This document shows, one piece after another, positions 1 through 59,618 of a DNA stretch of 64,000 nucleotides. Below the pieces are notes generated by a model that ran no database searches, had not been told where the DNA came from, and saw only the letters and a program-made list of their open reading frames with translations. Made by a program: the position numbers and the translations under genes. How positions within the stretch are numbered: position 1 is the stretch's first letter; each line of letters begins with the position of its first letter. The DNA lies in the NCBI GenBank assembly GCA_905178155.1, contig CAJINV010000005.1, positions 6,936,580 to 7,000,579 of the forward strand, written 5' to 3'. This DNA comes from Amoebophrya sp. A120. Lineage: Eukaryota > Protista > Dinoflagellata.

Positions 1-3000
1 CAACACCGACCACCGTGGATTTGGTTACCCTGAACGGCGACTTGATTGGCGGGTCGCTACTGTTTATGCACTGCAAAAGTATCGTACTCGTAGTAATTGC
101 ATTTATGCATAATTACAAGTCTCTTTCTCAAGGTAAATCAGCATGTCAAATTTAATTTGTAATGCTGAGCCAATTTGTAATGCAATCCAAACTAGTACGA
201 TACTTTTGCACTTCATACTGTTCAACCTGGACAAGGGGAGATCAATCATCGACGTTTGCAATCATCTGCAAGTGGACTACATGTGCCTCGGCAACCACGA
301 ATTCGACCACGGGTTGAAGGAGTTGGAAAACCGGGTGCTAGAATTCCAAGGGAAAGCGTGGTTGAACACGAACGTGCGGTGTAGCTCACCGGTATCCACC
401 ACTGTAAATTTCCCGTACACGTACAAATGCGGTCTCGGCATGACAAAACTTGGCCTCGATCCTAGTTTAGCATGACAAGTTTTACCCTCCAAATTGGTGA
501 AGTTTGTGATGCATCCTTACCCTCCAAATTGGTGAAGTGTTTGGGTGTGGTACGGGAAATTTGTATTGCATAGCCGGACGGAGAAAAAGGAGCGGTTTTG
601 AACAGCATGCCGAGATACGACATTTTGGAAGTGGATGTACCACAGCCAGGACCTTCTACTTCTAGCAATCATGGCACCACTGCTGCAAAGAAATTTCGCA
701 TCGGCCTGGTTGGCGTCTGCACGGCGGAATCCCCGAGTCTCTCCCTGCAGGACCCAACGAAGGAGGGGGTGGAATTTTTAGACCCCTTTGTGGAAACGCG
801 AAAGATCCTCGACGGCGTTTTTTTCTGCAACCATCCGAGTAAGAAGCAGGTCGACGCTATGGGTGTGTGGTCAGGATCGAAATCGTCAAAGTTGAAATAA
901 TTTGTAATGCAGAAATTGCAAGGCATGACGCGCCTGTCTTGCCGGGATGGCAAGTGAGGCCGATTGTGAGCCTGTTTAGGGTTTGAAATAGAGCTGCTAA
1001 AGTAGCATGACAAATTGGAAGATTCCGGTGCTCGGAAAATTTGTCATGCGCCGCTTGATAACTGGGTCGCCGATTGGCAACCATTTTATGCATGGCAAAT
1101 CGTTTGAACTTTGACGATTTCAATCCTGACGCATCCATAGACGCCGTTATTGCCATCACGCACCAAAGCAACGCGGACGACGAGAAGTTTCTAAAAGAGT
1201 TTCCAGAAATCAGCTGCGTCCTGGGCGGCCACGACCACATTCCGTGGCGGGTGTTTTGTGATGGTGGTGCAACTCCTGATAACGCCACCAGCAAGCGAAT
1301 CGCGGTGAAGGCGGGATTGGACTGCGAGGCCGTGGACATTGTGGAGTTTGAGTTTGGTTCCACCGGCTTGAATTTTTCCGGCCACACCTTCGTCTCACTC
1401 GTCGGGCCGGCTGCGGAAAATCTCCTCGATCCGGAAACGGGTGCGGTTCTGCGCCCGAAGTATTTTGACGACCCAGAGTTGCTGGAGAAAATCAAACAGC
1501 ACAAGAAAATCCTCTCTCTGAACGACTTCGCGATTCTGGATTGGCGCGATTACGATACCCTTTTGACCGAGGTGAACACTGCCGCGAAACACGAATCCGA
1601 TCCCTGGACGACCAAAAACATCCGCTCCAAACAGTGCAATTTCTACCATTTGATTGCGAAGTGGTGCAAGGAGGAACTTTGCGGACACTACCGAAACGAT
1701 ATGACAGTGCACAACTCGACGTCCCCCCGCTCATTTGTCATGCAAAAACCCAAATCCATTACCAGTTGCTAGTACCAGTACCTTGTGGCACCGCGTGCAT
1801 GACAAATTCCGGAAATCCAAACAGTACTACACTTTGCGCATGAACTTGTCATGCACAGGGTCCTCCTGTGCTGTTGTTCTTGTTTGTAATGGTGTTGATG
1901 CCATACATTACAAATGAGGGGGAAGGGCAGTTGAAGTTGTGCACTTTCATAAACGAGGCGGACGAAACCGGGAAACTGGCCTGGAGTAACTCCATCATGA
2001 TTGTCAACAGTGGGCAGTTTCGGGCCAACGTGAATTACGACTACAGCGAGAAGCTGAGTTTTATAGAATGCAAAAGCATCGTACTAGTAGAAATCGCATG
2101 ACAAATTCCCTGAGCATGAAAAATTGAATTTGTAATGCGGATTTATGTCAAGAAGGAGATTTGTAATGCGTGACTGCGATTACTACGACTACGATACTTC
2201 TGCAGTGGATAAGTTTTACGGATCTGCAGAAGGAGCTCGCGTTTAACAACAGACTAATGAAGCTCCGGATCGTCGGGAGGGATGTCGCTGCTTTACTGCA
2301 AGAATCGGAGGCGACCCGGAAGGGGCAGGGCGGGTATTTGCAGTATGACCCACGGAGCGTGGAGGTAGAAGTCACCGAAGAAGTGGGTGATGCGCCTGCG
2401 CTTACCATCAAATCGATCAACAACATTCCGTATCAAATGCAAATATGTCTGGGTCTGGAGGAATGCAAGTTTGTCATGCTTATCTGGCATGACTCGAGAA
2501 TCTGTGTTGCATAGGCACGCAAGAGCCCTCTTAACTGTCATGCGAAAAGGCAGTTTTCCATGCGGAATACATAAGACATGGCAGCCACAAAATTTGTCAT
2601 GCATAGCTGCGTATTGCGGCGCGGTTATCATTCACTTTTAGCATTTTTAACCCAGACATACTTGCAATTCATATTCCGTTCAGTCCAGACACGGAATACA
2701 CGGTCATTTTAGTCGTGAAAATGCTGCAGGGCATGGATAACTGGGAGATTCTGAAGCGGTATGGGTTGAAAATTGAAGAAGAGTTGAAACTGCCACTGAA
2801 CAGCATTCTGGACTCCGCCCCGGGCATGTTGGACTTGTGCCTGAACCACCTGCTAAAGGAGAAGTGGCGTCAATTGGTGAAACTGTTCGAGTCGACGGCG
2901 AATTACATGCCGAGTTTGACGAAAAGCTTGGCTATGGCGAAAGTGGAAATGCGAGACGAGGAAGCGACAGAAGGACGAGGCACAGCAACAACTACCAAAG

Positions 3001-4116
3001 ACCTACCAACTGCAAACATGTCTGGGTCCTCTGGATGAGTGCAGATGCCACCCAGAGCGTCTCTCTGGCATACAGGGGCCAGTAATATCACAGGTCGTTC
3101 TTCGAGAGCTTCGTTCACGAGAATGCCTAGTACTCTGCATGAGATGACATTTGCTCTCACCATGGCCAAAAGGAAACAACTTTTGATGTACTTAAGTTTG
3201 TGCAAGATCACAGATTTTTGTGATTTCGTGATGTGGAACTGGAATGCGCATGAGCACATGATGTTGCAACCTTCGCCTTCCAGGAGACCCTGAAGACATA
3301 TTTGCAATGCATAAGACATCACGTTCGACGATTTGCGCAAGGTGGCGTCGCAGTACGCGGCGGAGCGGCGGAAGTTGATGGGAGGACAGATGATGAACCA
3401 CACGGGAACAAACGAGGACGAAGATGATATCCTGTGTGAAAACATCCCCACCCCATAGTCAAGTTGTTGGAATCTCTGCAACACAGATCCAGGAGTTCTG
3501 GGAGCCACGCATGACACGTTGCACTCCGTAGTGTAGTGCAGGCTAGCGAGGACAGCCGCATCACAAAGTATCCGTCTGCTCATCCTGTTTACAGTATTAC
3601 AAATACCAAAACACGACTAAAAATGCCCATCATGGGGATGCGCATCACAAATGTTCCTGTCGTTGCAGATCTGCATGACAACTCTGGGGTGATCGGGACG
3701 TTGTTGCACAGGATAGATGACGAAGAGGAAACGCTTCTCCTCCGGATGATGTTCGTATGACAGTGCACAACTCACCCTCGTCCCCCTGGCCGTCATTTGT
3801 ATAGCATGAACGGCAATACAACCATCTCCATCAGCAAGAATGCCGGTTCTGCATGGCAAATGATTTGCGCTGGAGTGTCGTGCTATTATTTGGACTACCA
3901 GAACTTATCATGAAAACAGTGCCAAGAGGCAAAGGGTGGACTCGGTATTTTGCAAGACAAATGAGGGGCGGGAGGGGGGGGGGTGGTGCACTGTCATAAT
4001 TCGACCTGTTAGACGTGAATAAGGACGGGGTCGTGGACCAGAAGGAGCTGGAGCAGTTGTGCAGCAGTCCGAAGCAGAGCCAACACCGGGGAACGGTGGT
4101 GGTGCATCATTCTTGA
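1..4116 (+). CDS. 5'-nucleotidase/apyrase-like calcineurin-type metallophosphoesterase with C-terminal EF-hand (5' partial; 9 introner introns)
   Basis: Removing 9 elements plus one TSD copy each gives a continuous frame with NGDLIGGS, LGNHEFDHG, WLNTN, VDAVIAITH, VLGGHDH, NSGQFRA, FTDLQKELAFNN and FDLLDVNKDGVVDQKEL; TGA at 4114-4116. Confidence 0.85.
65..217. mobile_element. Introner family A (TIR core GCAAAAGTATCGTACT)
   Basis: TAT..ATA; TSD CTGTT/CTGTT. Confidence 0.85.
393..572. mobile_element. Introner family B (TIR core AAATTTCCCGTAC)
   Basis: TAT..ATA; TSD ACCGG/GCCGG. Confidence 0.85.
858..1139. mobile_element. Introner family C (TIR core GTCAGGATCGAAATCGNCAAAGTT)
   Basis: TAT..ATA; TSD GACGC/GACGC. 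Confidence 0.85.
1700..1951. mobile_element. Introner family D (TIR TATGANAGTGCACAA)
   Basis: TSD AACGA/AACGA. Confidence 0.85.
2062..2211. mobile_element. Introner family A
   Basis: TSD AGTTT/AGTTT. Confidence 0.85.
2431..2673. mobile_element. Introner family E (TIR core TGTCTGGGTCTGGAA)
   Basis: TSD TTCCG/TTCCG. Confidence 0.85.
3004..3313. mobile_element. Introner family E (diverged)
   Basis: TAC..ATA; TSD AGACC/AGACA. Confidence 0.75.
3428..3715. mobile_element. Introner family F (TIR core GAAAA..CCCCA)
   Basis: TSD GATGA/GATGA. Confidence 0.85.
3756..3998. mobile_element. Introner family D
   Basis: TSD GTTCG/ATTCG. Confidence 0.85.
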
Positions 4117-5049: not shown

Positions 5050-6004
5050 ATGGGCGAACTCTCCGAAGAGCAGTACAAGATGTGCTGCGACGCTTTCGCG
5101 GCCTTTTCCAGCCAGGAAGGTCTGCTGACCCCCTTCGAGTTGAATAATTGCATGCGCTCGCTCGGACACGTATGCATTGTAAATTTCGACCCGTACATGT
5201 ACTTACAAAATGCATGACAAAGAAATATCGCTAATTTCAGTGTACAACTTGTCATGCTAGACTAGGATTGAAGGCAAGTTTTGTGATGCAGAGACTGCAT
5301 TTGTACCTGTGCGGGAAATTTACAACTGTGGATAACACGCCCCGGGATCCGAGGAATTCGCAAAAATTCTGGAAGAACACGACTTATACTCGAAGGGAGG
5401 GGTATAGGATTTTGGGTTGACGTCGAGCTCAAGCACCATGTTGTAATATTCGCATGACAGTATGACTGGTGAAGATTCACACGCATTTATGACAATAAAG
5501 ACATAAGTTGTACTTAGCAAATACTAAATGTAAATCAGGTGTCACTCCAAGGCTTCCTCTACATCATCGCCCAGAGAGAGGCGTCAACAACGTTGAAAAC
5601 GGGGCTACTCGACGTGTTTAGCAAATTTGACCGAGACCAGAACGGATTTGTAGACGCGGAAGAAATCAAGGAGGCGATGATGACGCTGGGCGAAGAGCCG
5701 TTTACAGAAGACGAGTGGGTGAAACTGCTGGAGGAGTACGAGATGCCGCCCGACAATCTATCCTGTGCAAATAAAGCATCGTACTCGTACGAATCGCAGG
5801 CATGCTACACAAATTTCTTTTTCAAGCTATTCAATCTATCAGCATGGCGTATTCCATTTGTCAGCCATTTGTAGCCACGCTGAACCAAAAATTTGTATTG
5901 CAAGATTACGAGGACGAGGAGTGCGATACTTTTGCCGTTCATAAAAGCAAATCGACTACCATCAACTCGTCGAGATTATGACTCGGAAGCACGACCAGCC
6001 GTGA
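5050..6004 (+). CDS. Calmodulin-like EF-hand protein (~152 aa)
   Basis: Exons 5050-5170, 5340-5401, 5539-5758, 5949-6004 total 459 nt: MGELSEEQ..MRSLGHAP..FSKFDRDQNGFVDAEEIKEAMMTLGE..IDYHQLVEIM. Two introners and one GT-AG intron (5402-5538). Confidence 0.85.
5171..5334. mobile_element. Introner family B (opposite orientation to 393-572)
   Basis: TSD ACACG/ACACG. Confidence 0.85.
5759..5943. mobile_element. Introner family A (diverged)
   Basis: TSD CAATC/AAAGC; removal restores EF-hand spacing. Confidence 0.75.
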
Positions 6005-8892: not shown

Positions 8893-11800
8893 ATGGGACT
8901 ACTTCTGCTACACCGACATAACAACGCGACGAGGCGAAGTAGTTGTAAAACCAAAGAGATTTCTTGTCTCCATCAGCAATGTTTTCAACTTCAAAACACA
9001 AAGAGACCCTGCTCCTGGACAAGGACCACGAGATCAACATACTCAATAATTTTTTCTTTCGCATTTTTAAAACGAAAACTAAGCAGTCGCAGTCGTCCAC
9101 CACCAGGCTTGTTCTGTCACTTCGGAACACCAAGACGTGGGATAGTTCTTCTTTGTGTAGTCCTAGTACCTTTCCTACAACTTCTTATTTCTGTTACCGG
9201 TCTCAGAGCTGCTGCTCCATCATCTCCATCTTCCAGCAAGAAAGGACATCATCAGCGTCGACCAGGCCAGGACTTTCCTCCAGGGAACAAACACCAAGGG
9301 AACCACGACCGTGCTGAAGGTTCGTCTTCTTCCGCTGGGGCATATAGAAGTAATTCCCAGCGCCAACCACTGAATCTTCAATCTGGGGTAGTTCATCTAG
9401 AACCTCCTGGTGGACCACACGCACACAATGACGTGCAAATTGTCCAGCGCCAAGTGCTGGAAATGGCGCAGCACAGGGATCATGTTGACGAATCGGGTAA
9501 AAAAACGGCAGGAGAGCATCTGCATCACCGTGGCGGTGATATTTTTGGTGCAAGATCCCCGTCCAATATTCTCGATGATGATGCTCAAAACCACGACGAC
9601 ACCACCAGAGAAGATGAAATAGCAACACACGATCGAGTTTACGCGCAACAAGAGCAGCTGCGCCACCATGTCGAGCCCCTCGACATTCAAATCACGTGGG
9701 AAACGCGGTCGCACGCGAAGTTTTGCTTCATCTACACTGCGAAGCTGAAAATCAAAAAAGAAAAGAAGCGAGGAGCCCGGAAGCGGAAGCGGACCATTAT
9801 GCCCTTGGGGGAAGAGGAGGAGGGGGATCAAGATCAGGACATGACTTCTTCTGGGAATAATTATTTCGGAGGGCTACCACGACAGGAGGATGCTTTCGCG
9901 GACCACATTGCCGCTGACCAGGAACTCGCGGCGCAGTACGAAGCATTGGAAACCGATTTGCAAAAAGACCTCGAGATGCTTAACGTGATGCAAAAATCTA
10001 GGGCGGAAGCAAGAAAGAATAGATACGGAAGACACGACAATCACCAAGATCCTCAGAAGTATAAGGGGCAACAACAGCATCAACAAGCAGCCGCGAGCAG
10101 CAGCGCAGCAGATGGGTCGGTGCACCGCGGGATTCTTCGGGGAGGAGCGTCCTCTAGTAGTACTTCGCAGCACCCGCTGCAGGTGGATCCTGTACTCAGC
10201 GAAGAGCAGTTCCACCAAAGAGCTTTAGAGCTCCACGAGCGGATTGCGCAGAAGAAGCTGCAGCTTGAAAAGTTCTTGCACAGGGATCATCAGGCATCTT
10301 CATCTTCTGCCGATCTTCAACAGGTTGTTGATCAACATCGATCAGCTGCAAGGAGCAACAGCAAAACTTCGGGGGGTCATCACCAGCATCATCAAACCCA
10401 CCACCACCCGACCGAGCAAGTGACCGTGTGTCAGCAGTACCGGCGAGTTCGGCAATACTCGACCCGCACCCATGGGGAAGTCTTTCCCTCCCCTGGACAG
10501 CGACTATCACAAGAAAAGAGGGTTACAGTTACACCTTTGTTGTAACTTCAGCAACACAAATTTTCTCTGTGTGGCAGAGAAAACTTGCAATGCAGAAATC
10601 CTAAGGGAAAACACGTACGAAATGAAGTTCGAAAGCATTTCTTGCATGACAAAGGTTGTCTGTCTTGCGGCTCTTACGACACAACCTGTATACTGTAAAC
10701 ATTTTTTTCTCACGATAGCGACGGAAGAAGGTCCACTACCCGCGGAAGCCGGACATATGAGAGTGCACAAGAGCCCCCCCCTGCCCCTCTTTTGTCATGC
10801 AAAACTCTGAGAAATCCAAGCGCTGCGCTGTGGCACTGTTTGCATGACAGATTCCGGAAGTGGCCCAGACAATATACTACAATAGGCGCATGAACTTGCC
10901 ATGCAAAAGCGCGACGTGTGCTGGTGTTTGTATTGCTATTCATGCCAACATATTACAAATGAGGGAGAGGGGAAGTAAGTTGTGCACTTTCATAGGACCT
11001 GAAGACGGTCCACAACGAGATGAAGAGCAAGGCGCAGATCACCGTTGACAAGGCCCTGGCGCCCACCCTGCCCGGCGCGCGCGAAAATGCGGGGTTCGGG
11101 TGCGCGATTGAGATGCTGGAAAGGCGAGAGAAATGGCGCAGCAAGTGGCTGGATGCGTGCGGCTTCAGCGATTACGATCCGAATGTGATGTATGGGAGTG
11201 TCAGGATCGAAATCGACAAAGTTGAAATAACTTGTAATGCATAAAATGCATGACGCGAAATACGTGCGTTGCAGAGCAGGCAAGTGAGGCCGATGGTAAG
11301 CCTGTTTGGGGTCAGAGCTCGAGCTGCCAAAGCAGCATGAGAGAATCAGTCTTCTTTGCCTAAACAGCATTACAAACTGGATTTAGGCACCTCCAAGATT
11401 TGTCATGCGTCACTTGGAAACTGGGTTCCAACTGGCATCCATTTTATGCATGACAAATCATTTCAACTTTGTCCATCTCGATCCTGACAGTTGCATATGA
11501 TGCTCAAGAAGGTGTTGCACATGCACGACACGCAAGAGGAACAGGACTTCGATGATGATACGTACTTTCTGTTCACGCAAGAGGGAAGCTCCGCGATGAA
11601 CCGGGAGTTTTTTGAGTTGAACCACCGGAACCGGCTATCCTATGGAAAAACGTCCCCACACCATAGTCAAGATGGGAAATCTGCAACACAAATCCCCAAG
11701 TTTTGGGAGTTCTGCATGACAAGTTTCCATCTGCATTGTAGTGCGGACTGGCAAGGAAAGCCGCATGACAAAGCCATTTTCTGATCCTGTTTGCAGCATT

Positions 11801-14800
11801 GCAAATGCCAAAACACGACTGGAAATGCCTCTCATGGAGATGCGCATTACAAATGCTTCTGTCATTGCACATGTGCATGACAGCGCCGGGGTGGCGATGT
11901 TTTTACACAGGATGTCGGCACATCGTTGGGAATTACGAGTCCTCCTTTCCGGAGAACATCGAAATCCGCACCGACCGGAAAGTGGGGAGCCATCCGCAGA
12001 AGCAGTACATCAGCGATCCGGCCAAGCACAAGGCGGTGGTCCGAATCTCGTTGAGTGGAAACGGTTGGTGGGTCCCGACAGTTGGAAAAAAAACGAAAGC
12101 GGCTGCGCCACAAAAGATGACGAAGGTGTTGAACGACCAGGATGTTCTTGACAAAACTGCTAGTACCGCTACTGAAGCAGTAGCAGAGGCCGCGCCACCT
12201 CCAGTGCTAGCGCAAGAACTACATCAAGTCGAAACCGGTCGAGGACAAGAAGAAGACTTTGATTTCTTGCTATCCGAGATCGATCAAGATGACTCCAAAA
12301 CCAACCGCGAGAAGGGGTTGATGAAAGAAACAGAGCGGCTCTTCACGGTGAAGAAGGAATTCGATGACGAGGCGGAGCGACTTTTGCGGGAAAAAGAAAA
12401 GCAGGCAGAAATTGCGAGAATACAGGAAGAGCAACAACGTCTTCTGGAGCAGACTGCACAAGGTAGTAGAGCAGGACTAGTACAGGAAGATGAAGCACAT
12501 CAAAGCTACTCCTCGGAAGAGCAACGAGTTTCCAACTCGACCGCGGGTGCAGCTGGGGGAGGTGCAGCAGCTGGAGGTGCTGATGTTTCTGGCAACGGTA
12601 CTCGGACCTCAGCGGCTTTGGCGGGCTCACCACACGGAGCGGGAAGGGCAGCAGCAGGGGCGATGGACGTAGAGGAGGGTGGTCAAGAAGGGCAGCACGA
12701 CGAGGATCGGTCGGTTATTGAACAAGACCAAGCACGCAGACCTCGGGGAGATGATGCTGGACACCAGCAGGACCAAGTTATGCACCACAATCAGCCGGAG
12801 CCAGATATCGGCGTCCAAAGGGCGGGGCAGCTGAATCTAGACCTACTAGAACAGCAGCAGGATAAAAACGCGGCCCCCGCGCGCAGCGGGACGCCACTCA
12901 CACTGAACGACGACGATGAACACAGAATCTGGATGATGCAGACGACGGATGAGAGCGGCGGGGAAAATCCAAACCAACCAGGAGGTGGAGGTGTTGGCAG
13001 ATCGACGAACAGCTCCGGAGTTGCAGGGGAGCAGGAACAAACAGTTCCGGTGATCGTCGCATCATTGATGGAAGAAATGAAGGGCAAAGAGGTCCTGCCA
13101 GAAACCGTTGCGGACGATGGGAAGAGCACGCACCGGGAACACCCTACGCAAACGGGGGCGAACCGCGGCCACAAAGTGCGGAACTGCCTCGCGGAAATAC
13201 ACGAGCAAATGAGGAACGTCAGCTTCCTATGAACTGCAAAAGTATCGTACTTCTACTTGTAAGTGTTGCAATACAAATTAGCTCAGCATGACAAATGGAA
13301 GTTGCCCTGCTGATTTAGCTTGAAAAAGAAATTTGTCTTGCATGACTGCGATTAGTACGAGTGCGATACTTTTGCACAGGATACCTCCTCGCGGCCATGG
13401 AACGAGCGAACGAGGACGCGATAAACGTGAGTTTCAGCTACCCACCGACCCCGGACCGCTGCTCGCCCGATATTACGGGATATCAAATGCAAATATGTCT
13501 GAGTCTGGAAGAGTGCAGATTTTTGTCATGCTGTTTTTGCATGACACAGCCGGTCTGTCATGAAAGCCCTAGCATCACAGATTCCGAGACCGTGCCGCAA
13601 TGCTTATTCCGCATGACAAATCCTTCTTTTTGGTGACAGGAAATGGGCACCTCTTGCTGCCTATGCATGAGAGATTTGCGCGTGCAGTGGAATTCGCATC
13701 ACAAGTTTGGACCCTTCCAGACCCAGACATATTTGCATTTGATACGGGACGAACAGACGCAAGCTCCCGGATCGCACTGCTGCTGTATCCTGAGAAAAAA
13801 GTGTTACAGTTACACATTGTGTTGCAGGCCAACCAAGACAGACAAGCTCTGTCATGCCTGAAGATATGCATAGGAGCCTCCTTTGCCATTCATAGGTGAA
13901 GGTGTTTTCCCGTAGGATTTCTGCATTGCAAGTTTTTTCTCTCATGCAGAGAAAGTTGTGTTGCTGAATTGACAACAAATCTGTAACTGTAACACTTTTT
14001 TCGCGCGATATGCTGGCTACCACTCCGACTACAAACGCTGACGGGAAGCCGAGAAGGCCTCGGTCTTTCGTTCCCAAAATTGTGATGATCGAGCCCCCGC
14101 CGGCGGAGAGAGAACCAGAACACCCTGCGGAAGCTGCAGAAGACCACAAGTCGAACCAAGAAAGTAAACAACTTCAAGAAACCACTGCAGGAGCGGAAAT
14201 AAATGCTGCCGCGGCGCAGCAGCACGACGCAACTACAGCAACAGGCGAGCAGGGGATGATGTTGAAAGGCAAGCGACAGCGACAGGCAAGTAAAAACAGC
14301 ATGAGTGAAGGTCAGCGGCGGGGACAGCAATCGCAGGATCATGTTGGGGAGCATTTGCTACACGATCAGCAGGATCCGGACTCACCAGAAGAGGAAATAA
14401 GTTATGGACAAAACAAGCAAGCCGCACAAGAAGAAGGACCACCACAGCTGCACCAGCAAATAACGAAAGTGGTCCCCGCGACGACAACTTCCTCCTCACC
14501 GAAGAAAAGCCGTGGCGGAGGAGAACAAGGACTCCTTCACATTCCAGCCGCTAACACACATTCCGTCTCAAACAGCACCACGGCTGGGCTGACCACGCTC
14601 GTGAACCACGGGGCAATGACTGGTGTAGTGGAAAACGCGGGATCCCGAGACAGTCACGTGAGTGGAAGATCCAACATGACGAGCGGCAACGCCGGACGGG
14701 CGGGAAACGCAGTGGCCGCTGCGGGAGTGGTAGTATGCATTGCAAAAGTATAATATCTTCGTCCTACTAGTACTACAGGAATTCGAATTGCAATACGAAC

Positions 14801-35723: not shown

Positions 35724-36422
35724 ATGCCCGGAGGGCATCTTCCGCCCCGGGCAGCAGGCGACCCACCGACAACGCAAAGTAGTAATGCCAATTATGACCA
35801 TGCAGCTGATTATGGTGCTGCAACCAACAACTGGATCCCACCGCATGCCGGTACTAACCAAGCGCAACAAGAAGCAGATCATGACACGACGCCGACCAGA
35901 TCCGCTGCAACATCTCTCTCGCAACAACTTTTCGCCCTCAACCGACGACTCCGGAACTTTTTTCACACCATACTCCGCCTGTACGGGATTTTGTGCCTCC
36001 ACGTAGCGTTTCTGGTCTCCATGCGGACGAGCTACGAATTTTTGGTGAAGATGGAATACGGAGCGGAATTCTTTTATGGAAGTGTCAGAATCGAAATCGA
36101 CAAAGTCGAAAAATTTGTGATGCACAAAATCGATGCCAGTTGGAGCCTCAGTTTCTAAGTGGCGCGTGACAACTTTCGGGACCACCAAAATCCAGTCTGT
36201 CATGCTGTTTGGACAAAGCAGGCTGCTCCTGTCATGCTACTCTGGCAACATATTACATTTTACATACCCCTAAACAGGCTTCCAATCGGTCTCATTTGCC
36301 TGCTCCCCAATACAGGCGTCGCGTGCCCTACATTTTATGCATCACAAATTGTTTGATTTTGTCGATTTCGATCCTGACACCCCCATATCTTTTTTGTCGA
36401 TTTTTTGTACCTGGCAATGTAG
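35724..36422 (+). CDS. Small hypothetical protein (~126 aa) with a hydrophobic C-terminal part, or an upstream ORF of the BEACH gene
   Basis: ATG at 35724. Removing introner 36075-36387 gives ..AEFFFVDFLYLAM* (TAG 36420-36422). No recognisable domain. Confidence 0.4.
36075..36387. mobile_element. Introner family C
   Basis: TSD TCTTT/TCTTT. Confidence 0.85.
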
Positions 36423-48274: not shown

Positions 48275-51175
48275 ATGTCCCACCTGTCCGTTGCTTCCAC
48301 CGCGGAGCCGGCGGAAGCGGCTCCGGCCGCCGACCCGGAAGCCGTTCAGAACAACGAAAACCACGAGATCGACTCCGTGATTCCGGATGACCCGCTGGAA
48401 AACGAAACCCAGGCGCCGGAGGAGAACGATCAGGAGGGGAATGACGACAACGAAGATGACATCAATTCCGTCCCCCCGCCACCCCCGGAGGATGAGGAGG
48501 AACAAGAAACCGGTGTTGCAGCTGGTGGTAATATGTCTACCAACCAGCTGAACGCTGACGCTGCGGAGTTCACGATGGGAAATAGTAATCAGGACCAACA
48601 AATCGCTAATATGAACCCGAATGTGGTGAGTATGATGGGGAATAACAATATGCAACACCCTATGGCAGGAGGCGAGAACAAGAACAATCACCACCGGCAG
48701 AAGTGGAATCCGATGCACTTTGTCGGGGAGTTCGAGGACTCTCTCGGCCACCGGATCACCTCCGTCGAGGTGCCGCCGCGGAACCCCACTGGACCGGGTA
48801 TGAAACAGCCGGAGCCGTCCTTTCACGCCCACTTTGTGGCCAGAAATCGCCCGGATAAGAGGTACTGATTTGATTCTTCCTATATCAATCTGTTGCGATT
48901 GCTTCTGCTTGCATGACAGGGACTGCTTGCAATGGAATGTTCTTACGCATCAGAAGTTAGTTGTGCATCGAGATTTTTGCATGGAGATGTTCATGGGCTA
49001 ATAGCATGAGAAACAAAGGTCTTTATTCGTTATGCGAATACACATACACATCGACGAAACACAAAAACAGGTTCGTCATCGCCCGGAAGCAGGTGATGCG
49101 ATCGCAGAAGCGTGCTTGGATGTGCGGGAATGGGTACTTTTGCCACCAGCTGTCCAACCCCGACCGGATTGTCTTTCAGACCATCGATGGACGGGAAAAC
49201 GTCTGGACGAGGCTGCCACCGGTAGAATTTTTGTTTGTCATGCAGTAACAGGCAAGAGACGCACGATTTCCGTTGCTACAGTGCTAGTTTAAGTAGTCTA
49301 TGTTTATTGTGTGCTTCCTTTTAATATTGACGTTCAAGTTTGTCATGCATAATAGCCACAGCACTTCGAAATATTAAACGACGACACTACATCACACTAT
49401 CAGGCCGGCGCCGTTTTCTTCGATCCGCCCCCGAATCTGACGATCGACGTGGATGCCGCAATGGCGCAGTGGCGCGAGGAGCACTTGAAACTTCTCGAGC
49501 AGAAGATGACGGAGATTCATCTGGAGGACGAGCAAGCGATTGCGGAGAAGGAACAACAACAACAGCAAATTTTGACCGAAAAGAACGACACGACCGAACA
49601 ACAAGAACAGTTGCAAAATAACGTTGAGAAGGTGGAAAATATTAACGCCGTCCAACGGAAAGAAAAAAACGACAAAAATACGACCGAAAAGCAGGCATTC
49701 AAAACTGGCGAAAGCACACCCTCAACAACTCCGGATGAGGAAAGCAAGGAGGAACCTAGTGCCACCGAAAACAAGAAATCCGACGACACCGAAGCCACTT
49801 CCTGGGCAGCAAAGCTGAAGAAGTCAACAGAGACGAAAGCGTCCTCATCAACTGCTACGAAACAGGAGAAAAAGGACACCAAGCCAGTCCCCAAAGTCAT
49901 GGAAAACGTAGAAAAGTCATGGCCACCAAAGAAATGGGCGGCCAATGCCAACGCGGAGGAATTTTTCCCGGCTTGCTTGGAATTGACCCGACCAAGAGTA
50001 AGCGGGAATGCGAAGCAGGTGAAGGAACTACAGGTAAGTATGAATTAATCTTAAATAAACAGATAAGTACCACTGACTAGAGGCTTAAAGCGACGAGCTT
50101 GCGATGTATATTTTCCAAACATAGTTAGAGATAGAACCGCGAGTAGCATCATCTTCTTTGTAGTTGTGCAGATTCAAAATCAAATTTGACCTACTTTACT
50201 AGTTTGTCATGCATATTATCCGAAACAAAAAAAAACTTGTATCAGGTCCGAGCGGTCTCTGATGTTGGGATGGGCAACCAGATGTTCTCCGAATTGCAGT
50301 GGACGTTGGAGGAAAAGTGGAGCCAGTTGAAGAAGAATCCGACGGATTTCGCAGTGGTGTCCCCGCACTTCTCAGTCGGCGTCGTGGAGAACGTATTTTT
50401 GCTTTACATACTGTTTGTACTTTTTGGCAGTACAGAGTCAGTTTGTCATGTAAGAAGAAGCATGAGAGGCTAATATAGAAAGAGCAGCCAACATCCGCGC
50501 TTTATCTACCAAGAAGCCCAATCGTATCGCTATCTTGTATGGAAAGACTCAATACTCTGTCGTAAATGAAAAACACAAAACAACTATCAGCTCCAACTTT
50601 CCTTTTTCCCGTCCGGGAGGAAAGCCAGCGGCAAGAAGTCGAAGCACACCTCGCTCCAACTGATCACGGGCGATTTGCAGGAGAGAGCCATGGGCTTGGA
50701 ATTGGAAATTATGATCAACGGCATTCGGTGTGAAACCGCGAAGAAGACGGTTAGTGGAAGGTTATGGATGTGTCAGAATCGAAATCGTCAAAGTTGAACT
50801 AGTTTGTCATGCATAAAATGCAACGCAGAAATTGTCTCTATTGCAGAGAACGCAAGAGAGGCAGACTGTAAGCCTGTCGAGGGGCAGAAATAGAGCTGCC
50901 CAAGTAGCATGACAAAAGGCGTCGACCTTACCCAAACAGCATGACAAACTGGATTTAGATTCTACCCAAATTTGTTATGCGCTACTTGGAAACTGGGCTG
51001 CAACTGGCCTCCACTTTACGCATGGCAAACTATTTCAACTTTGTTGATTTCGATCCTGACGCTTCCATAAAGGTTCACCGGGGACTACCCGTCTATGGAT
51101 GATAAGACGGAGGAGGTGAAGATTTGCTTGAGGATAATCAACTTGTTTAAGGACGAAAAAAAGATCGAGAACTAA
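48275..51175 (+). CDS. Hypothetical acidic protein with two PAM2-like motifs and a possible MATH-like C-terminal domain
   Basis: NQLNADAAEF and NANAEEFFP resemble PAM2 (LNxxAxEFxP). Four GT-AG introns plus introner 50763-51069; TAA at 51173-51175. Domain calls made by eye. Confidence 0.6.
50763..51069. mobile_element. Introner family C
   Basis: TSD AAGGT/AAGGT. Confidence 0.85.
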
Positions 51176-52257: not shown

Positions 52258-53677
52258 ATGGTCGTACATCTATCGAAGAGTAGAGTCGGCAAAGCCACAG
52301 CCGTGTTGGCACTCCTGTCGCACACCGCTGTCTATGCCGATCCAGCCCCGGTACAACAACCGGCGGAAAAGAACGGAAGGCAACTACCTGAAATAAACAC
52401 CTCGGCGGACAATCGTATCCTGAAGCCGAGACTTCGTGGGACGTTGCGGAAAAGAGAACTGCTGGAAGAGGCAGCTGCATCAAACCTGCTTCCAAGTAGC
52501 AACTTGATGCAAAAGCAGGAACTTCTGCAAGAACTACAGCTGCACAAGAAAGAAAACGACGGCGCACTCGAAAAATTACAACGAACCTCCGAGCAAGAAC
52601 TCTCCCCCAAGCCGCGCCTCCGCGGCACCCTCCGGAAGCGAGAACAGGAGCAGGCCGCGGCGATGTCGGCGGCTAAAGTAAAACTACAGGACAAGTTGGA
52701 AGGCGAAGGGAACAAGCCGACGGCTGCAAATGATGATGCAACAGCAACTGCAAGCAATTTGATGCAGGTGATGAAACAGCAGGAGCTGCATCTTCACAAA
52801 CACGATCACGGAGTCGTGCCACCGCAGCAGCTCCAAGACCACCTCGTCCAAGCCGGCTCGAACGAAAACATTTCACAAGACCACCTTGTTCCCAAGCCCC
52901 GGCTCCGCGGCACTCTGCGGAAGAGAGCGGAGAGGGAGATGAAGCTGAAAAGCGCGCCGGACGGTGGTGCGGAGACGAAAGAACTACTCACAGTCCCTGC
53001 TACGTCGGACGACAATGTGACGGAACAGCATGAAATAAACACCAAAGTCACCGCCAGCAGCACAACTTCAACTTTGCAAAAGCTGGAGCAACGGGAGCAG
53101 CAAAAACACGACCTTCAGCAAAACCACAAGTTCGAAACATTTATGCTGGAATCAAAGAGTTATCTCAAGGAGAAATTCGAAGAACTCTCGTCGTCCATGG
53201 GCAAGAAATTGGACGAAATTGTCGACGATTACGTGCAGCCGTTTTTCAAATCCGCGGAAGAAAAAACCGTGGAATTGGCAAACGAAGCGCTCACTGGGGC
53301 CGTGCAATCTTTCACGGAAACCACGACAAACGGCCCGGATGAGGGCAGCTTCTGGGCGAGGTTTCAGAAACAAGAATTCGCGGAGGTATGACAGTGCACA
53401 ACTCCCCTTCCCCTTCATTTGTCATGCAATATACCCAGTCCACCCTTGCCTTTGCCACTTGGCACTGTTTGCATGACAAGTTCTGCTTCTGGTAGCTTAA
53501 ATAGCACTACTATAATGCTCTAGTGCAAATTTGTCATGCAAAACCACCAATCTTGTTGATGCTTGTATTGCTGTGTATGGTATACAGATGAGGGGAAGGG
53601 GGAATTGTGCACTCTCATACGCGGGCGGGTTCGGAGATCAGATCGGGGACGAGGTGGTGGCACTGGGGCGGGTGTGA
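52258..53677 (+). CDS. Putative secreted protein with three KPRLRGTLRKR repeats
   Basis: Signal-peptide-like N-terminus (MVVHLSKSRVGKATAVLALLSHTAVYA). Long ORF to 53386, then an introner; short last exon ending TGA 53675-53677 (junction uncertain). Confidence 0.65.
53387..53619. mobile_element. Introner family D with displaced TSD
   Basis: CGCGG-AGG-TAT..ATA-CGCGG. Confidence 0.8.
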
Positions 53678-54783: not shown

Positions 54784-57700
54784 ATGACCGAGCCGGCTCC
54801 TCCGAAGCCGAACAAGCAGCACGTGCACATCGTGGCGGAGATCGGCATCAACCACAATGTATCCTGTACAAACGTATCGTACTCGCATTGCAATCATGCA
54901 TTACAAATCCCTTTCTTAAGCCAAATCTGCATTACAAATTTCATTTCTCATGCTGCAGAAATTTGTATTGCATTTATACGAATACGATTTTTTTGCAATG
55001 CATACAATGGGGACATTGAACTCTGCAAGAAGCTGATCATGCTCGCGAAAACGGCCGGGTGCGACTCCGTGAAAATCCAGAAGCGAAACCCCGATGTCTG
55101 CGTTCCGGAGGACCAGAAGCTATCAAATGCAAAAATGTCTGGGTCTGGAAGAATGCAAGACTTGCCATGCATATTTCTCATGACCCATGATGCCTGTAAT
55201 GCATTACCTAGCATCGCAGACTTTTACAGGGCTTCCTGATGCACCTTCCGCATGAGAAATGCCCCCTCCGTGTAGCACAAATTGCACCCCTCTTGCTGGT
55301 CATGCAATACAATTTTATTTAGAGTCTACAAACAGCATGACAAGTTGCAATCTTCCAGACCCAGACACTTTTGCAGTTGATAGAAACAGAAGATGCGCGA
55401 CACGCCGTGGGGGCGGATGACGTTATCAACTGCAAAAATGTCTGGGTCTGGAGGGATGCGAACTTGTAATGCTAGCTCTCCATACCCAGGAAATCTGTAT
55501 TGCATAGCCAACAATGAAAGTCGCAGCCTCTTTTGTACATGCAAAAACGCAGTATCTCATGCGGATTTCCTATGAGAAAGGGAAAGCGTTCTCAAAAGTT
55601 GTCATGCTGTAATGCATGCGGAACTGTTTCCATCATCCACATTTTAGCATCACAAGTTTCCAGGCCCAGACACTTTTGCAATGCATAGACGTATCTGGAA
55701 TACAAGTGGAAATTGGAATTCAACGAAGAGCAGATCAAAGAGCTGATCGAGTACAGCAAGTGGATCGGGATCACGTTTTTCGCTTCCGTTTGGGACATAT
55801 GCATTGCAAAACTGACGTACGTACGTAGAAATTGCATTACAAATTTTCTCAAGAAGAAAAATACAATTTGTCATGCGTGTTCAGGTAGAGAAAGAGAATT
55901 GAACTTGTCATGGATAGCTGCAATTACTACGAGTACGATACTTTTGGAGAGAATAGGACAAGGAAAGCTGCGATATGATGTGCAAGTACGGCGGATTGTC
56001 GAAAATCCCCTCGGCTTTGATCACGGATTTGGAACTCTGCGAGTACGCAAGGAAAAAGTTCGAAACGCTGATCATTTCGACCGGTAAAGTTGAGAAGAGT
56101 TACGCGGTGATAGACATTGACATAGATGATTTAGGTTTTTGCATCCGCGAAACAGAGGCATTGGCTTGTGATGCCTCTGCATGATAGATCAGTCCAACAG
56201 CTTTACTGACCATTTTCGAATGTTTCTGTATAAGGAGTACTCCTGCATGACAAACAGCACAATCCAAAACTCTTTAGAAAACAGGTATGTCCACCGAAGA
56301 GGAGATCGAGGCCTGTGTGAAGGTGTGCGACCCGGATATCATCATGCACACGAATTCGACCTACCCGTGCCCCTACGAGGATTTGAACCTGCGGTACATC
56401 ACGCACCTGAAGGACAAATACCCGGAAAAAATCATCGGCTACTCCGGCCATGAGTACGGATTGGTTACCACATTTTGCGCGGTCGCGCTCGGCGCGCTGT
56501 ACGTCGAGCGACATATCACGTGGGATAGGAACATGTGGGGGTCTATGGGAGTGTCAGAACCGAAATCGTCAGAGTTGAAATGATTTGTCATGCACAGATG
56601 GATGCCAGTTGGAACCCAGTTTCCAAGTAGCGCATGTCAAATTTTGGCGGTCCTTCAATCCAGTTTGTCACGCTGTTTAGGCAAAGAAGACGGATTTTCC
56701 CATGCTACTTTAGCAGCTCGAGCTCTAACCCCAAACAGGCTTACAATCGGCCTCACTTGCCTGCTCTGCAAGACACATACCCCGCGTCGTGCATTTTATG
56801 CATGACAAATCATTTCAACTTTGTCGATTTCAAACCTGACGCTTCCATAGGGTCGGATCAGCTGTCATCCGTGGAGCCGGCGGGGTTGTTGAAATTAGTG
56901 AAGGGCATATGCAAGAAAAAAACTGTGTAAGTGTAACTCTGTAATGCAGAATATGCAACAGATCTACGCCTGTCATGCCACACAGCCACGAAGTCCTTTT
57001 TTCATGTGTGTTTTCCCTTACAAGCCGCGCATGACAGGTTCTCTCTGTTATGTAGACTAAATTTGTGATGCTGTCAGCCAAAGAGAGTTGCACTCACACA
57101 GTTTTTTTCTTGGATAGGGCATCCGGGATTCCAGCGAGTCGTTGGCTTACGAACCATATGGTTTGCTCAAATGTTACAATCTCAAACGTTACAATAACAT
57201 CATCTCAAATTTTCCTGACCGAACATCATGAGTACTGTACAGAGACTTGGGCTTTCGCGATACAAATTTCGCGAGATAATTCTCATGGGGTTGGGAGCTC
57301 CGAAACTTGTCATGCGTGCTCCTGTGGGAGTCGGCCAGATGTTGCGCATCGTGCAACACAAATTCCAGATTCTATGGTATACCGATTTGAGATTGTAACA
57401 CCTGGGCGGGTTATAAACTAGGGCCGAGGATTATGCAACGTAATTTTCCCGTACATGTACAAAATGCATGACAAGCTTCACCAATGTGGAGTGTAACACT
57501 TGTCATGCTAAACTAGGACTGAAGCCCAGTTTTGTCATGCAGAAGCCACATTTGTACGTGTGCAGGAAATTTACTGTGGATAAGGATTCTGTTCGACCGG
57601 GAAAACTCGAAGAAGGTCAGTTTGCGCCCGCAGCTATCCTGTGCAAACGTATCGTAGTCGTATTGCAGTCATGCATTACAAATCTTTTTGTTAAGGCAAA

Positions 57701-57794
57701 TCAGCATTACACCCCCCACGCTGAGGAAATTTGTAATGCATTTATACGAGTACGAATACGATACTTTTGCAATTTATAGCAGCCGAAGAAGTAG
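54784..57794 (+). CDS. neuB: N-acetylneuraminate (sialic/nonulosonic acid) synthase, NeuB family, ~288 aa, no C-terminal SAF domain
   Basis: IVAEIGINHNGD, AGCDSVKIQKR, FFASVWD, KIPSA, IISTGMS, MHTNSTYP, GYSGHE, VERHIT, WGSDQ. Nine introners and one GT-AG intron (56084-56284); spliced length 867 nt. Confidence 0.92.
54860..55004. mobile_element. Introner family A (in-frame, stop-free)
   Basis: TSD CAATG/CAATG; removal restores INHNGD. Confidence 0.9.
55121..55382. mobile_element. Introner family E
   Basis: TSD GAAGC/GAAAC. Confidence 0.85.
55424..55687. mobile_element. Introner family E
   Basis: TSD GACGT/GACGT. Confidence 0.85.
55798..55955. mobile_element. Introner family A (diverged)
   Basis: TSD GGACA/GGACA. 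Confidence 0.85.
56544..56849. mobile_element. Introner family C (opposite orientation to 11191-11497)
   Basis: TSD GGGTC/GGGTC; removal restores WGSDQ. Confidence 0.9.
56908..57116. mobile_element. Introner family G2
   Basis: TSD GGGCA/GGGCA. Confidence 0.85.
57157..57415. mobile_element. Introner singleton family H (TIR core TGTTACAATCTCAAA)
   Basis: TSD AACCA/AACTA. Confidence 0.8.
57432..57582. mobile_element. Introner family B
   Basis: TSD AGGAT/AGGAT. Confidence 0.85.
57635..57778. mobile_element. Introner family A
   Basis: TSD GCAGC/GCAGC. Confidence 0.85.
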
Positions 57795-59385
57795 TGAAGG
57801 CTTGTTTGGCATTTTTGCAGGGGCAACTGGGGGTGATCTCTGTGTGTGTGATTATCTGTAGGGCTACCCAGGAGTGAAAAGAACTTGACAGACCTCGGCT
57901 CTGCCGGCCGTATTAAACTTCAATTCACGGATTCTATCTTGCTGAATTTTTACCTGATGAGGTCGATTCTGCGATCATTCACATCTATTTTTTCAACGCT
58001 AATTTGCCCTCTTTATCTTTTCAAAGAAATGTTGTTAGTAATTGTGATTTGATTTTTTGACAGAGACGCAGATGAAAGATTGAGATATTAGTTGATGGTA
58101 GCGATTATATGTAACTGCTTTCACAGAAGGTGGAGTTGTTAGCCCTTTTTGTCGTCCTCGAGACGTCTCCTGAAACCGATGAAAGTAATATGAAAAAAGT
58201 TTGACGAATGAGCAAAAGCGCGTGCTGGCGCACAGTCTGTCAGGGTCGCGTTGGCCGCGAGCTTCCGTGGTCGTAGTGGTACTTGAGAAAAAAAAAAACC
58301 GAAAGCAAACTGCCCTTTTGTCGCTGTTCAGCTGATGTTCTTGCTCATGATGTGAAACAGATTCGATTGGTATTCGACAAGACTATCGATCGGTTTGTAC
58401 CGTACCTCTATTCGAGAATATCGGTTGTCTACTTCCGTGGTCGTACACATAGTCTTCAAGCAGGCGAATGATTATCGGTCTCGTCTTCTAATTGAAAGTC
58501 GTATTCGTAATGATACTTCCTTGTTTTTCCTCGTATTATCGATTGCTTTTTCCTCGTACGATGTTGTATAGTGGTATAAGCATTTTATTTCCTCGTACTA
58601 CCGGTCGTGTGGCTCTGATCGATCATCGGTCTGATTGTGGTATTCGTTCAACAACTCACATTTCAATATTTCTTCGGTTCGTCACACGGCGCTGCTGCTC
58701 CGGCGCAGAAGTTTTTAGGCGACGGTTGCGTTACTTACGTACGAGTTTTCACTTCGTATAGCTTTATTGATCGAACATGACGTGTACTAGGGCTTTCCTG
58801 TGCTAAAAATATTTCCATTCTGGTCTGCTGGCTTTTCTGCGCAGTGCTTTGACAGAAAATCAAAATAATTCCTCCGACAGGTTTTGGTGCGAAAACTTTC
58901 TTGACTTGTTGGTCGTCCCCACGTCTGCAAGCCCTGAAAGAACACAGAAGTACTACCGCATTTAACATTTCACGACTTCGATTTTTCGAACAACAAACTT
59001 AAGCTTTTTTCTTCTATAGTACGAGACAACTAGTACAATGAACTGTAGTTTGAGCAGTCACCTTGATCTTCTATCTTTTACAAACAAACAAAATCACTAT
59101 CCCTAAATACGCCTGCTGCAACGTTAGCTACGACGTGCGAAAAGGTGTAATCACTGCTGCTCAAAAGTAGCGCTGTTTCCTGCTCAACAGAAGTACTTCT
59201 TGTAGACGAGTATTTCAATTTCTGTTGCTTTTCATCCAGAAGTAGATCCACGTGAAGTTGTAGCCTTCACTGCTGTGTCACCACCAAGGAACATGACTTT
59301 CACGACTCGAGGCGCTCCTGTCGGACCACGTCAACAGCGGCCCGCAGGTCGTCCCGCAGGTCGTTCCAGCATGATCACCGCGAGC

Positions 59386-59618
59386 TATGAGACTGCACAA
59401 CAACTCTCCCTCGTTTTCAACTCTCATGAAAAACACTAACTCCACCCCTTGCCTTGTGCCACTAGCTACCATGCATGACAGATTTATTCCGAAGCCGAAA
59501 CAGCACTAAAATCGGCCGTGAATTTGATGTCATGCACCAAAATCTGCATCTGTGTGAGCACTCGTGTTGCTGTGGATGCCATCCAAATGAGGGGGAGGTG
59601 CAGTTGTGCACTCTCATA
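59386..59618. mobile_element. Introner family D
   Basis: TSD CGAGC/CGAGC. Confidence 0.85.

What the first reader, a model, noticed from the sequence alone, without database searches (positions are those of the whole stretch)
65..59618. Window-wide system of TAT...ATA / 5-bp-TSD transposon-introns removed without GT-AG
Seen: 61 inserts in about 8 sequence families interrupt every confidently called gene. Nearly all start TAT, end ATA, have TIRs and are flanked by a 5-bp direct repeat (44 perfect by hand count). Deleting the element plus exactly one repeat copy restores invariant motifs: BEACH DLSQYPIFPW, NeuB INHNGD and WGSD, RPN12 ERYLMEG. At 38422-38636 the only frame-restoring ends are GC-TA, CA-AG, AA-GC, AT-CA, TT-AA or TA-AT, none canonical. 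Established: non-canonical IR/DR-bounded introners are reported in Amoebophrya. Inference: essential genes here depend on a removal mechanism that reads the transposon ends rather than splice dinucleotides.
Basis: partly seen in the sequence, partly recalled or inferred. Interest (0 to 1): 0.92.

Follow-up and report, generated by a model that had tools for sequence, protein, structure and literature searches.

The report
Transposon-derived introns lacking GT-AG in Amoebophrya
Sixty-one short hairpin-ended transposon-like inserts interrupt the genes in this DNA of the marine parasite Amoebophrya A120 and are likely all spliced out without GT-AG signals; the phenomenon was published in 2021, and what this window adds is a likely fixed cut position that points to a likely relaxed spliceosome.

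Summary
In detail: 61 TAT…ATA inserts with terminal inverted repeats, 44 with a perfect 5-bp direct repeat (38 strict hits against 0.35 in shuffles). Removing element+5 nt restores frames, up to a 3856-codon ORF with 23 inserts. Exons match proteins named Amoebophrya sp. A120 at 98-100%, and Farhat et al. 2021 already describe these A120 introner elements (TAT + 7 nt + AAA ends, 3-5 nt direct repeats). So the core finding is already known. RNA-like contigs skip exactly element+5 at two sites; one of them cannot be read as GT-AG. DNA-like contigs keep the element. Additions I did not find in the searched literature: imperfect repeats point to one cut register (intron = N-TAT…ATA-NNNN); this puts TAT at +2..+4 like the host's canonical GTA(T) donors; the first T never varies at the 5' end (0 of 253) but does at the 3' end (7 of 253); families sit in both orientations; a 31-bp-phased GCAT[GT]ACA motif fills elements and canonical introns; a 2.65-kb 62nd element lies inside a canonical intron. 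Most likely mechanism: a relaxed U2-type spliceosome positioned by the hairpin. That step is untested.

The parts
65..3998 (+). 9 elements in a 5'-nucleotidase/EF-hand gene: 65-217, 393-572, 858-1139, 1700-1951, 2062-2211, 2431-2673, 3004-3313, 3428-3715, 3756-3998
   Evidence: All 9 removed as element+5 in public model P0135; Pfam 5_nucleotid_C and Metallophos
3004..3313 (+). Element with position-5 repeat mismatch (AGACC/AGACA); limits the register to k<=4
   Evidence: Ile rather than Leu in P0135 and in homolog P0136; a conservative difference, so weak
5171..5943 (+). 2 elements (5171-5334, 5759-5943) in a calmodulin-like gene, beside canonical intron 5402-5538
   Evidence: gene identity by eye, the one exon scanned gave no Pfam hit
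10505..26175 (+). 23 elements in one 3856-codon ORF (8863-26439): starts 10505, 10756, 11191, 11636, 13228, 13481, 13786, 14734, 15273, 15578, 16192, 17331, 18186, 18636, 18935, 19221, 22201, 23381, 23794, 24968, 25233, 25561, 25868
   Evidence: ORF continuity after element+5 removal; unnamed protein P0138 removes 3 of 4 as element+5
19221..20156 (+). 936-bp family-A element carrying a GC-rich internal insert of about 780 bp flanked by TAGTA on both sides
   Evidence: Sequence; no Pfam hit for its two ORFs
31167..31637 (+). 2 elements in RPN12 (31167-31316, 31413-31637); the gene also has four canonical GT-AG introns
   Evidence: ERYLMEG restored; Pfam CSN8_PSD8_EIF3K at E 5.9e-05, just under the curated cut-off; introns
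32011..34659 (.). 62nd element: 2649 bp, TAT…ATA, perfect TTAAA repeat, 128-bp TIR, nested in the canonical RPN12 intron 31891-34692; no transposase recognised
   Evidence: Pfam and Atlas gave nothing above noise for the ORFs tested
36075..36387 (+). Element in a probable small ORF (35628-36419) upstream of the BEACH gene
   Evidence: 158-codon ORF after removal; gene unconfirmed
36566..41705 (+). 8 elements in the BEACH/WD40 gene: 36566-36778, 36841-37009, 37362-37509, 38422-38636, 39611-39880, 40050-40217, 40814-41065, 41464-41705
   Evidence: All 8 removed as element+5 in public model P0121; Pfam Beach, WD40
36841..37009 (+). Element with position-5 repeat mismatch (TTCGC/TTCGT); limits the register to k<=4
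   Evidence: Trp rather than Arg in P0121; annotation only
38422..38636 (+).
44418..46755 (+). 4 elements in Sec61 alpha (44418-44555, 44729-44867, 46129-46340, 46608-46755), with five canonical introns
   Evidence: Pfam SecY
50763..51069 (+). Element skipped as 312 nt (307+5) in an RNA-like contig; its repeat also allows a GT-AG reading at k=3
   Evidence: Run X5 record 9; registers
53387..53619 (+). Element skipped as 238 nt (233+5) in an RNA-like contig; only GG-GC, GT-CG or TA-GG fit; k>=3
   Evidence: Run X5 record 10 skips it, run X1 record 8 spans it whole
54860..57778 (+). 9 elements in NeuB: 54860-55004, 55121-55382, 55424-55687, 55798-55955, 56544-56849, 56908-57116, 57157-57415, 57432-57582, 57635-57778; one canonical intron 56084-56284
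   Evidence: P0001 removes 6 of 9 as element+5; homologs support element+5 at two of the other three
57157..57415 (+). Element with position-4 repeat mismatch (AACCA/AACTA); limits the register to k>=4
   Evidence: Pro in P0001 and in 93 of 119 homologs
59386..59618 (.). Family-D element not assigned to a confirmed gene (short ORF 59206-59782 upstream of the MORN ORF)

Best explanation
These inserts are the published non-canonical introner elements of Amoebophrya sp. A120: likely non-autonomous DNA transposons, bounded by TAT…ATA inverted repeats and a 5-bp direct repeat, that are likely all removed from RNA as element plus 5 nt, likely by a relaxed U2-type spliceosome guided by the terminal hairpin. 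Shown here: the anatomy, frame restoration, the strain-level protein match, two exact skips in RNA-like contigs, and retention in DNA-like contigs. Inferred: insertion by a cut-and-paste transposase acting in trans (5-bp repeat, TIRs, both orientations); a fixed cut 1 nt before TAT and 4 nt after ATA; use of TAT as +2..+4 of the host's GTA(T) donor, with +1 G and the 3' AG no longer required. Untested: that the spliceosome is the catalyst. My odds: identity with the published system 0.97; RNA-level removal 0.93; fixed k=4 register 0.7; spliceosomal catalysis 0.6.
For: Identity: exon queries hit proteins named Amoebophrya sp. A120 at 100%, 98% and 100%; the paper's A120 motif 'TAT, seven less-conserved nt, three or more A' and 5-bp repeats match. 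Removal: X5 contigs skip 312 and 238 nt, and record 9 also fits four canonical introns by length; 26 of 30 elements inside four public protein models are removed as element+5; only the +2/+5/+8 class restores long ORFs. Transposon origin: 93 of 114 further elements in loci L001-L129 have a perfect 5-bp repeat; 6 of 7 families lie in both orientations; a 2.65-kb member sits inside a canonical intron where it need not be spliced. Hairpin: 59 of 60 folded elements pair their ends, median z -6. Register: k>=3 from RNA, k>=4 from Pro in 93 of 119 homologs, k<=4 from two public models; all nine top A120 non-canonical sites in the paper's Table S4 are NT-NN. Donor likeness: 15 of 15 canonical introns start GTA (9 GTAT), 61 of 61 elements read NTA at k=4; the terminal T changed 0 of 253 times at 5' ends and its mirror base 7 of 253 times at 3' ends, p=0.015. 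A120 keeps U2, U4, U5, U6 and nearly all spliceosomal proteins; Fritillaria is a spliceosomal precedent.
Against: Only 2 junctions were seen in RNA-like data, from contigs whose RNA status is a guess, and one of the two allows GT-AG. The two raw-read RNA runs laid 12 and 2 reads and show nothing. The k<=4 limit rests on public models that are wrong or discordant at 4 of 30 elements. The paper calls the sites variable relative to the hairpin. U1 snRNA was not found in A120. No sense-strand branch-point bias: the shared motif is 65 sense and 71 antisense. No acceptor signal at k=4 (AG in 7 of 61 and 17 of 192). The asymmetry p-values are uncorrected for three positions and use inferred gene orientation. 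No transposase was found. 30 of 61 elements have some frame-keeping GT..AG pair within 15 nt of both ends, excluded only where homologs or models pin the junction.
Confidence: 0.62

Rival explanations
1. Same elements and RNA-level removal, but by a spliceosome-independent endonuclease and ligase (or a separate machine) that measures from the base of the hairpin, as suggested for euglenid nonconventional introns.
For: Strong terminal hairpins in 59 of 60; no acceptor signal and no strand-biased branch motif; U1 not found; Euglena introns use a similar offset geometry, 3 nt at the 5' side and 5-6 nt at the 3' side of the paired motif, and are released as circles without lariats.
Against: The TIR end matches the host's canonical donor at +2..+4 and shows 5'-specific conservation; canonical and non-canonical introns alternate within genes and share the GCAT[GT]ACA motif; the spliceosome is nearly complete.
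Confidence: 0.27
2. The elements are excised from DNA (programmed elimination as in ciliate IESs), leaving one repeat copy.
For: Element plus one direct repeat is the signature of pointer-type DNA excision (recalled, no call).
Against: DNA-like run X1 has a 3861-nt contig piece spanning element 53387 with no differences, and pieces that cross exon-element borders unbroken, at even depth of about 43-60 in unique bins; the X5 contig that lacks an element also lacks canonical introns. Limits: contigs drop rare variants, and only 15 of 886 joints were shown.
Confidence: 0.03
3. These loci are silent, disrupted copies and intact paralogs or retrocopies supply the proteins.
For: Run X5 shows little or no depth over BEACH and Sec61 alpha exons, which is no proof either way.
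Against: X5 spliced contigs match exons with 0-1 differences; each of three homolog searches listed one A120-named protein (one search lists only the best 120 of 1908); a 3856-codon ORF stays open across 23 inserts.
Confidence: 0.02
4. Removal is spliceosomal but through ordinary GT-AG sites near the element ends, so the non-canonical reading is an artefact.
For: 5 of 61 allow GT-AG in an exact register, including RNA-seen 50763; 30 of 61 have a frame-keeping GT..AG within 15 nt.
Against: Element 53387 is skipped with no GT-AG option; invariant motifs leave no room for extra or missing residues (INHNG[DS] in 108 of 119, WG[ST]D in 119 of 119 homologs); the paper reports 65% non-canonical RNA-supported introns in A120.
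Confidence: 0.03

Closest known systems
Amoebophrya sp. A120 introner elements / non-canonical introns (Farhat et al. 2021, PMC7789003)
   Same: Same strain by protein match; TAT + 7 nt + AAA inverted repeats, 5-bp direct repeats, about 240 nt mean length, hairpins, many families, mixed with canonical introns, unidirectional gene clusters.
   Different: Nothing in kind. The paper gives repeats of 3-5 nt and leaves the border 'variable/unknown' (though it mentions four repeat nucleotides upstream); here the repeat is uniformly 5 bp and the data fit one register. Donor likeness, end asymmetry and the phased motif were not in the text I read; its figures were not visible to me.
Fritillaria borealis non-canonical MITE-derived introns (PMC11282704 section 6; PMC13326754 abstract)
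   Same: TIR and TSD bounded transposon introns with non-GT-AG ends, removed by a modified major spliceosome.
   Different: Fritillaria favours AG-AC/AG-AT, keeps U1 and has duplicated U2AF; A120 has no preferred acceptor and no U1 was detected.
Euglenid nonconventional introns (PMC12501133 abstract; PMC11282704)
   Same: Hairpin-defined ends with cut sites a fixed distance outside the paired motif, longer spacer on the 3' side, TSD-like repeats.
   Different: Motif CAG…CTG with 3 and 5-6 nt spacers against TAT…ATA with inferred 1 and 4 nt; euglenid introns are released as circles by unknown machinery, which is untested for A120.
Micromonas/Aureococcus and Polarella introners (PMC9860276, PMC11282704, PMC12130899 passages)
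   Same: Non-autonomous DNA transposons that create introns, taking splice sites from the element and the TSD without changing mRNA length.
   Different: Those use GT-AG or GC-AG; these mostly cannot.

Membership tests
Amoebophrya A120 introner elements (Farhat 2021) | Located in the Amoebophrya A120 genome | tested here: met
   Three exon queries hit proteins named Amoebophrya sp. A120 at 98-100% identity
Amoebophrya A120 introner elements (Farhat 2021) | 8-20 nt terminal inverted repeat starting TAT, then about 7 variable nt, then an A run | tested here: met
   TAT start in 57 of 61; end sequences; definition. The A run is clear in most families, shorter in families C and D
Amoebophrya A120 introner elements (Farhat 2021) | 3-5 nt direct repeat at the exon/intron boundary | tested here: met
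   5-bp repeat perfect in 44 of 61, 4/5 in 15
Amoebophrya A120 introner elements (Farhat 2021) | Repeated in families | tested here: met
Amoebophrya A120 introner elements (Farhat 2021) | Absent from mature RNA with non-GT-AG ends | tested here: met
   Two skips in RNA-like contigs, one with no GT-AG option; the other 59 junctions were not seen in RNA
MITE / non-autonomous TIR DNA transposon | TIRs, fixed-length TSD, short, no coding capacity, either orientation | tested here: met
MITE / non-autonomous TIR DNA transposon | A cognate autonomous element with a transposase sharing the ends | tested here: inconclusive
   No genome held; the 2.65-kb element shows no transposase in the ORFs tested; the paper reports no putative transposase in A120; a later paper reports a TIR element with integrase-like ORFs
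MITE / non-autonomous TIR DNA transposon | Empty orthologous site with a single copy of the repeat | tested here: inconclusive
   None of 129 loci overlapped the window's exons; element-free homologs were seen only as proteins
U2-type spliceosomal intron | GT/GC-AG terminal dinucleotides | tested here: not met
   GT-AG possible in 5 of 61 in any register, 2 of 61 at k=4; 7 of 192 in other loci
U2-type spliceosomal intron | Donor positions +2..+4 like the host's canonical introns | tested here: met
   NTA in 61 of 61 at the inferred register, GTA in 15 of 15 canonical introns; depends on k=4
U2-type spliceosomal intron | Branch point and lariat intermediate; dependence on U2/U5/U6 | not testable with these tools
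   No strand-biased branch motif found; needs lariat sequencing or inhibition
Euglenid-type nonconventional intron | N3-CDG…CH'G-N5-6 signature | tested here: not met
   Ends are TAT…ATA; signature
Ciliate-type internal eliminated sequence | Excised from DNA | tested here: not met
   DNA-like contigs keep the element that RNA-like contigs skip; rare excision not excluded

The most novel reading that the evidence does not exclude
A120 has a U1-less spliceosome that ignores G+1 and the 3' AG and cuts by a ruler: 1 nt before the hairpin's TAT and 4 nt after its ATA. Any TAT…ATA transposon with a 5-bp target duplication is then a perfect, orientation-independent, scar-free intron from the moment it lands. 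A GCAT[GT]ACA motif spaced every 31 bp (three DNA helix turns) in both canonical and transposon introns would be the binding site of a DNA-level factor that marks introns.
Probability: 0.35. Interest if true: 0.72.

Novelty: already known. Interest (0 to 1): 0.36.

Why it matters
The system is published, but how these introns are removed is still open in the papers I read. A fixed cut register turns that into a sharp test: it predicts the junction base at every imperfect repeat, the 5' end of any lariat, and which snRNA or protein contacts must have changed. If right, it explains how tens of thousands of transposons can land in exons without harm. It also bears on annotation: 4 of 30 elements checked are mis-joined or discordant in public protein models.

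Tried and rejected
No whole genome was held, so no genome-wide scan, snRNA search or transposase search was possible. In one search the DNA-like run filled the joints table (15 of 886 rows shown, all element-to-element noise). No direct RNA view of the NeuB, Sec61 alpha, RPN12 or BEACH junctions was obtained, so the register rests on one RNA contig, homolog conservation and public models. GCAT[GT]ACA as a branch point: rejected as unsupported, since it has no strand bias and no fixed distance to the 3' end. Helical periodicity of element lengths: best period 9.4-9.5 bp, jitter p=0.004, but family members are not independent, so no claim is made. Selection on repeat identity: not supported; 19 mismatches in 305 repeat positions is comparable with median 83% nearest-neighbour identity. 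Transposase in the 2.65-kb element or the 936-bp element: nothing above noise in Pfam or the Atlas. Empty-site alleles: no overlap between loci L001-L129 and window exons. Nine of 17 imperfect repeats are synonymous and give no register information at protein level; 10756 and 13228 could not be checked. Our-findings look-ups returned nothing. Roy et al. 2023 is not held; the motif hit in PMC6482013 was a primer.
Full report
Observation. Scans for N5-TAT…ATA-N5 and for terminal inverted repeats gave 53 elements, and BLAST with these found 8 more, 61 in all, covering 14,017 bp or 22% of the window. With two right ends corrected, the flanking 5-bp repeat is perfect in 44, 4/5 in 15 and 3/5 in 2; no element has a perfect adjacent repeat of 4 or of 6-9 bp. 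The strict pattern occurs 38 times, against a mean of 0.35 (max 1) in 100 shuffles. Of 60 elements under 400 bp, 59 pair their ends in the minimum-energy fold, median z -6. There are seven families and three singletons; six of the seven families lie in both orientations relative to the genes, which are all on the + strand. Fifty-nine elements lie in called coding sequence, one in a probable small ORF and one is unassigned, although about 23 kb of the window is intergenic or canonical intron (binomial p about 4e-14 with approximate gene spans).

Reading frames. Deleting element plus d nt gives long ORFs only for d = 2, 5 or 8, the longest for 5: 3856 codons across 23 elements. If retained, 41 elements shift the frame, 16 add a stop, 3 read through and 1 could not be tested. 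The genes are a 5'-nucleotidase, a calmodulin-like protein (by eye), the giant ORF, RPN12, BEACH/WD40, Sec61 alpha, two unknown genes and NeuB. The MORN ORF has no insert, so 'every gene' is slightly overstated.

Identity. Exons of NeuB, BEACH and the nucleotidase hit proteins that public sources name Amoebophrya sp. A120, at 100%, 98% and 100%. Farhat et al. 2021 (PMC7789003; seen: abstract, passages, sections 10-12, supplement passages and part 3 of 5, no figures) report 65% non-canonical RNA-supported introns in A120, inverted repeats starting TAT followed by seven variable bases and an A run, direct repeats of 3-5 nt with a 5-bp example, 29,850 repeated introns, a nearly complete spliceosome and no detectable U1. 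The finding is therefore this published system.

RNA versus DNA. In one search, run X5 (RNA by the tool's guess) has a contig joining 50757 to 51070 (312 nt = 307+5) and one joining 53384 to 53623 (238 nt = 233+5). The first contig's unseen parts have the lengths expected from four canonical introns, which fits spliced mRNA. A third contig leaves the genome at the edge of the 54860 repeat. Element 50763 also allows a GT-AG reading; 53387 does not. DNA-like run X1 spans 53387 whole with no differences. Two raw-read RNA runs laid almost nothing. In four public protein models, 26 of 30 elements are removed as element+5. Of the four exceptions, three are in NeuB: at two of them homologs side with element+5 (no homolog of 119 has the extra residue; 108 of 119 have INHNG[DS]), and the third is the C-terminal element, which the model reads into. 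The fourth is in unnamed P0138.

Cut register. Let k be the number of repeat bases kept from the left copy. The 53387 contig needs k>=3. At 57157 the left base gives Pro, found in the public model and in 93 of 119 homologs, so k>=4. At 3004 and 36841 the public models carry the right-copy base at position 5, so k<=4; a transcript-derived homolog agrees at 3004, but only by Ile versus Leu. All informative sites fit k=4: intron = N-TAT…ATA-NNNN. The paper's nine commonest A120 non-canonical sites are all NT-NN and its text mentions four repeat bases upstream, though its Fig. 3 legend calls the sites variable. This register is an inference from few sites and from imperfect models.

Mechanism. At k=4 the element supplies +2..+4. 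A pattern scan fetched 129 further loci. There, 93 of 114 anchored elements have a perfect 5-bp repeat. A wider search found 243 elements, of which 192 could be oriented by a codon model and 51 were dropped; on the window the same method found 44 of 61 and called 35 right, 8 undecided, 1 wrong, and it was trained on that window. Pooling 192 and 61, the terminal T changed 0 times at 5' ends while its mirror base changed 7 times at 3' ends (p=0.015), and the third base changed 8 times at 5' ends and once at 3' ends (p=0.037; uncorrected). A purely DNA-level constraint should be symmetric, so the 5' end appears to be read as a donor. No acceptor signal is visible. I therefore favour a relaxed U2-type spliceosome positioned by the hairpin, as in Fritillaria (PMC13326754 abstract; PMC11282704 passages and section 6), over a separate nuclease-ligase as suggested for Euglena (PMC12501133 abstract). 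Neither is tested.

Further features. GCAT[GT]ACA occurs in 56 of 61 elements: 136 copies in elements, 10 in 2.6 kb of canonical introns, 13 in 20.6 kb of intergenic DNA and none in 26.7 kb of coding sequence, with no strand bias. With the wider form of the motif, 27 same-strand pairs lie 31-33 bp apart. Its role is unexplained. A 2649-bp TAT…ATA element with a perfect TTAAA repeat and 128-bp TIRs lies inside the last canonical RPN12 intron and lacks the motif; no transposase was recognised in the ORFs tested.

Literature. Six searches found no paper that fixes the register, the donor likeness or the motif. Passages were read in PMC12130899, PMC12005148, PMC9860276 and PMC6482013. Roy et al. 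2023 is not held, Henriet et al. 2019 was seen only through a review, and the logos in Farhat's Figs 3, S19-S25 were not visible and may already show some of this.

Verdict. Observation confirmed; system already known in this very strain; mechanism still open, with a sharper and testable model. Interest 0.36.

Noticed in passing
window 32011-34659: 2649-bp TAT…ATA element with perfect TTAAA repeat, 128-bp TIRs and internal tandem repeats, inside a canonical RPN12 intron; a larger relative of the short elements, no transposase recognised.
   Followed up: partly
elements and canonical introns window-wide, e.g. 30676, 45809/45841, 56245, 63079-63136: GCAT[GT]ACA motif, both strands, often 31-32 bp apart, enriched in elements and canonical introns and absent from coding sequence.
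   Followed up: partly
window 19249-20034: GC-rich insert of about 780 bp with internal CTCTCG/CGAGAG repeats inside a family-A element, flanked by TAGTA; possibly a second mobile element with a 5-bp duplication.
   Followed up: partly
window 6320-7694: Intergenic GC-rich segment bounded by a 47-bp direct repeat (6320-6362 and 7648-7694) with clustered inverted GCATTACA repeats at 7011-7405; possibly another mobile element.
   Followed up: no
window 54784-57795 (P0001): The public NeuB model reads through element 54860 as a 50-residue insert, has one extra residue at 57432 and runs into element 57635; homologs favour exact element+5 removal at the first two.
   Followed up: yes
window 54784-57795: NeuB-family sialic acid synthase whose listed close homologs are mostly unnamed environmental proteins at 72-84% identity over the exon tested; origin not examined.
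   Followed up: no
window 8863-26439: A single low-complexity ORF of 3856 codons with 23 inserts; the parts scanned have no Pfam match, and one exon found only itself among cluster representatives.
   Followed up: partly
15 canonical introns, e.g. 30794-30965, 44098-44292: Canonical 3' ends often read TA-W-CAG (A at -5 in 12 of 15, T at -6 in 8 of 15), the positions held by the elements' ATA in the inferred register.
   Followed up: partly
window 57416-57431: A 16-nt spacer between two elements in NeuB forms a micro-exon of about 21 nt.
   Followed up: no
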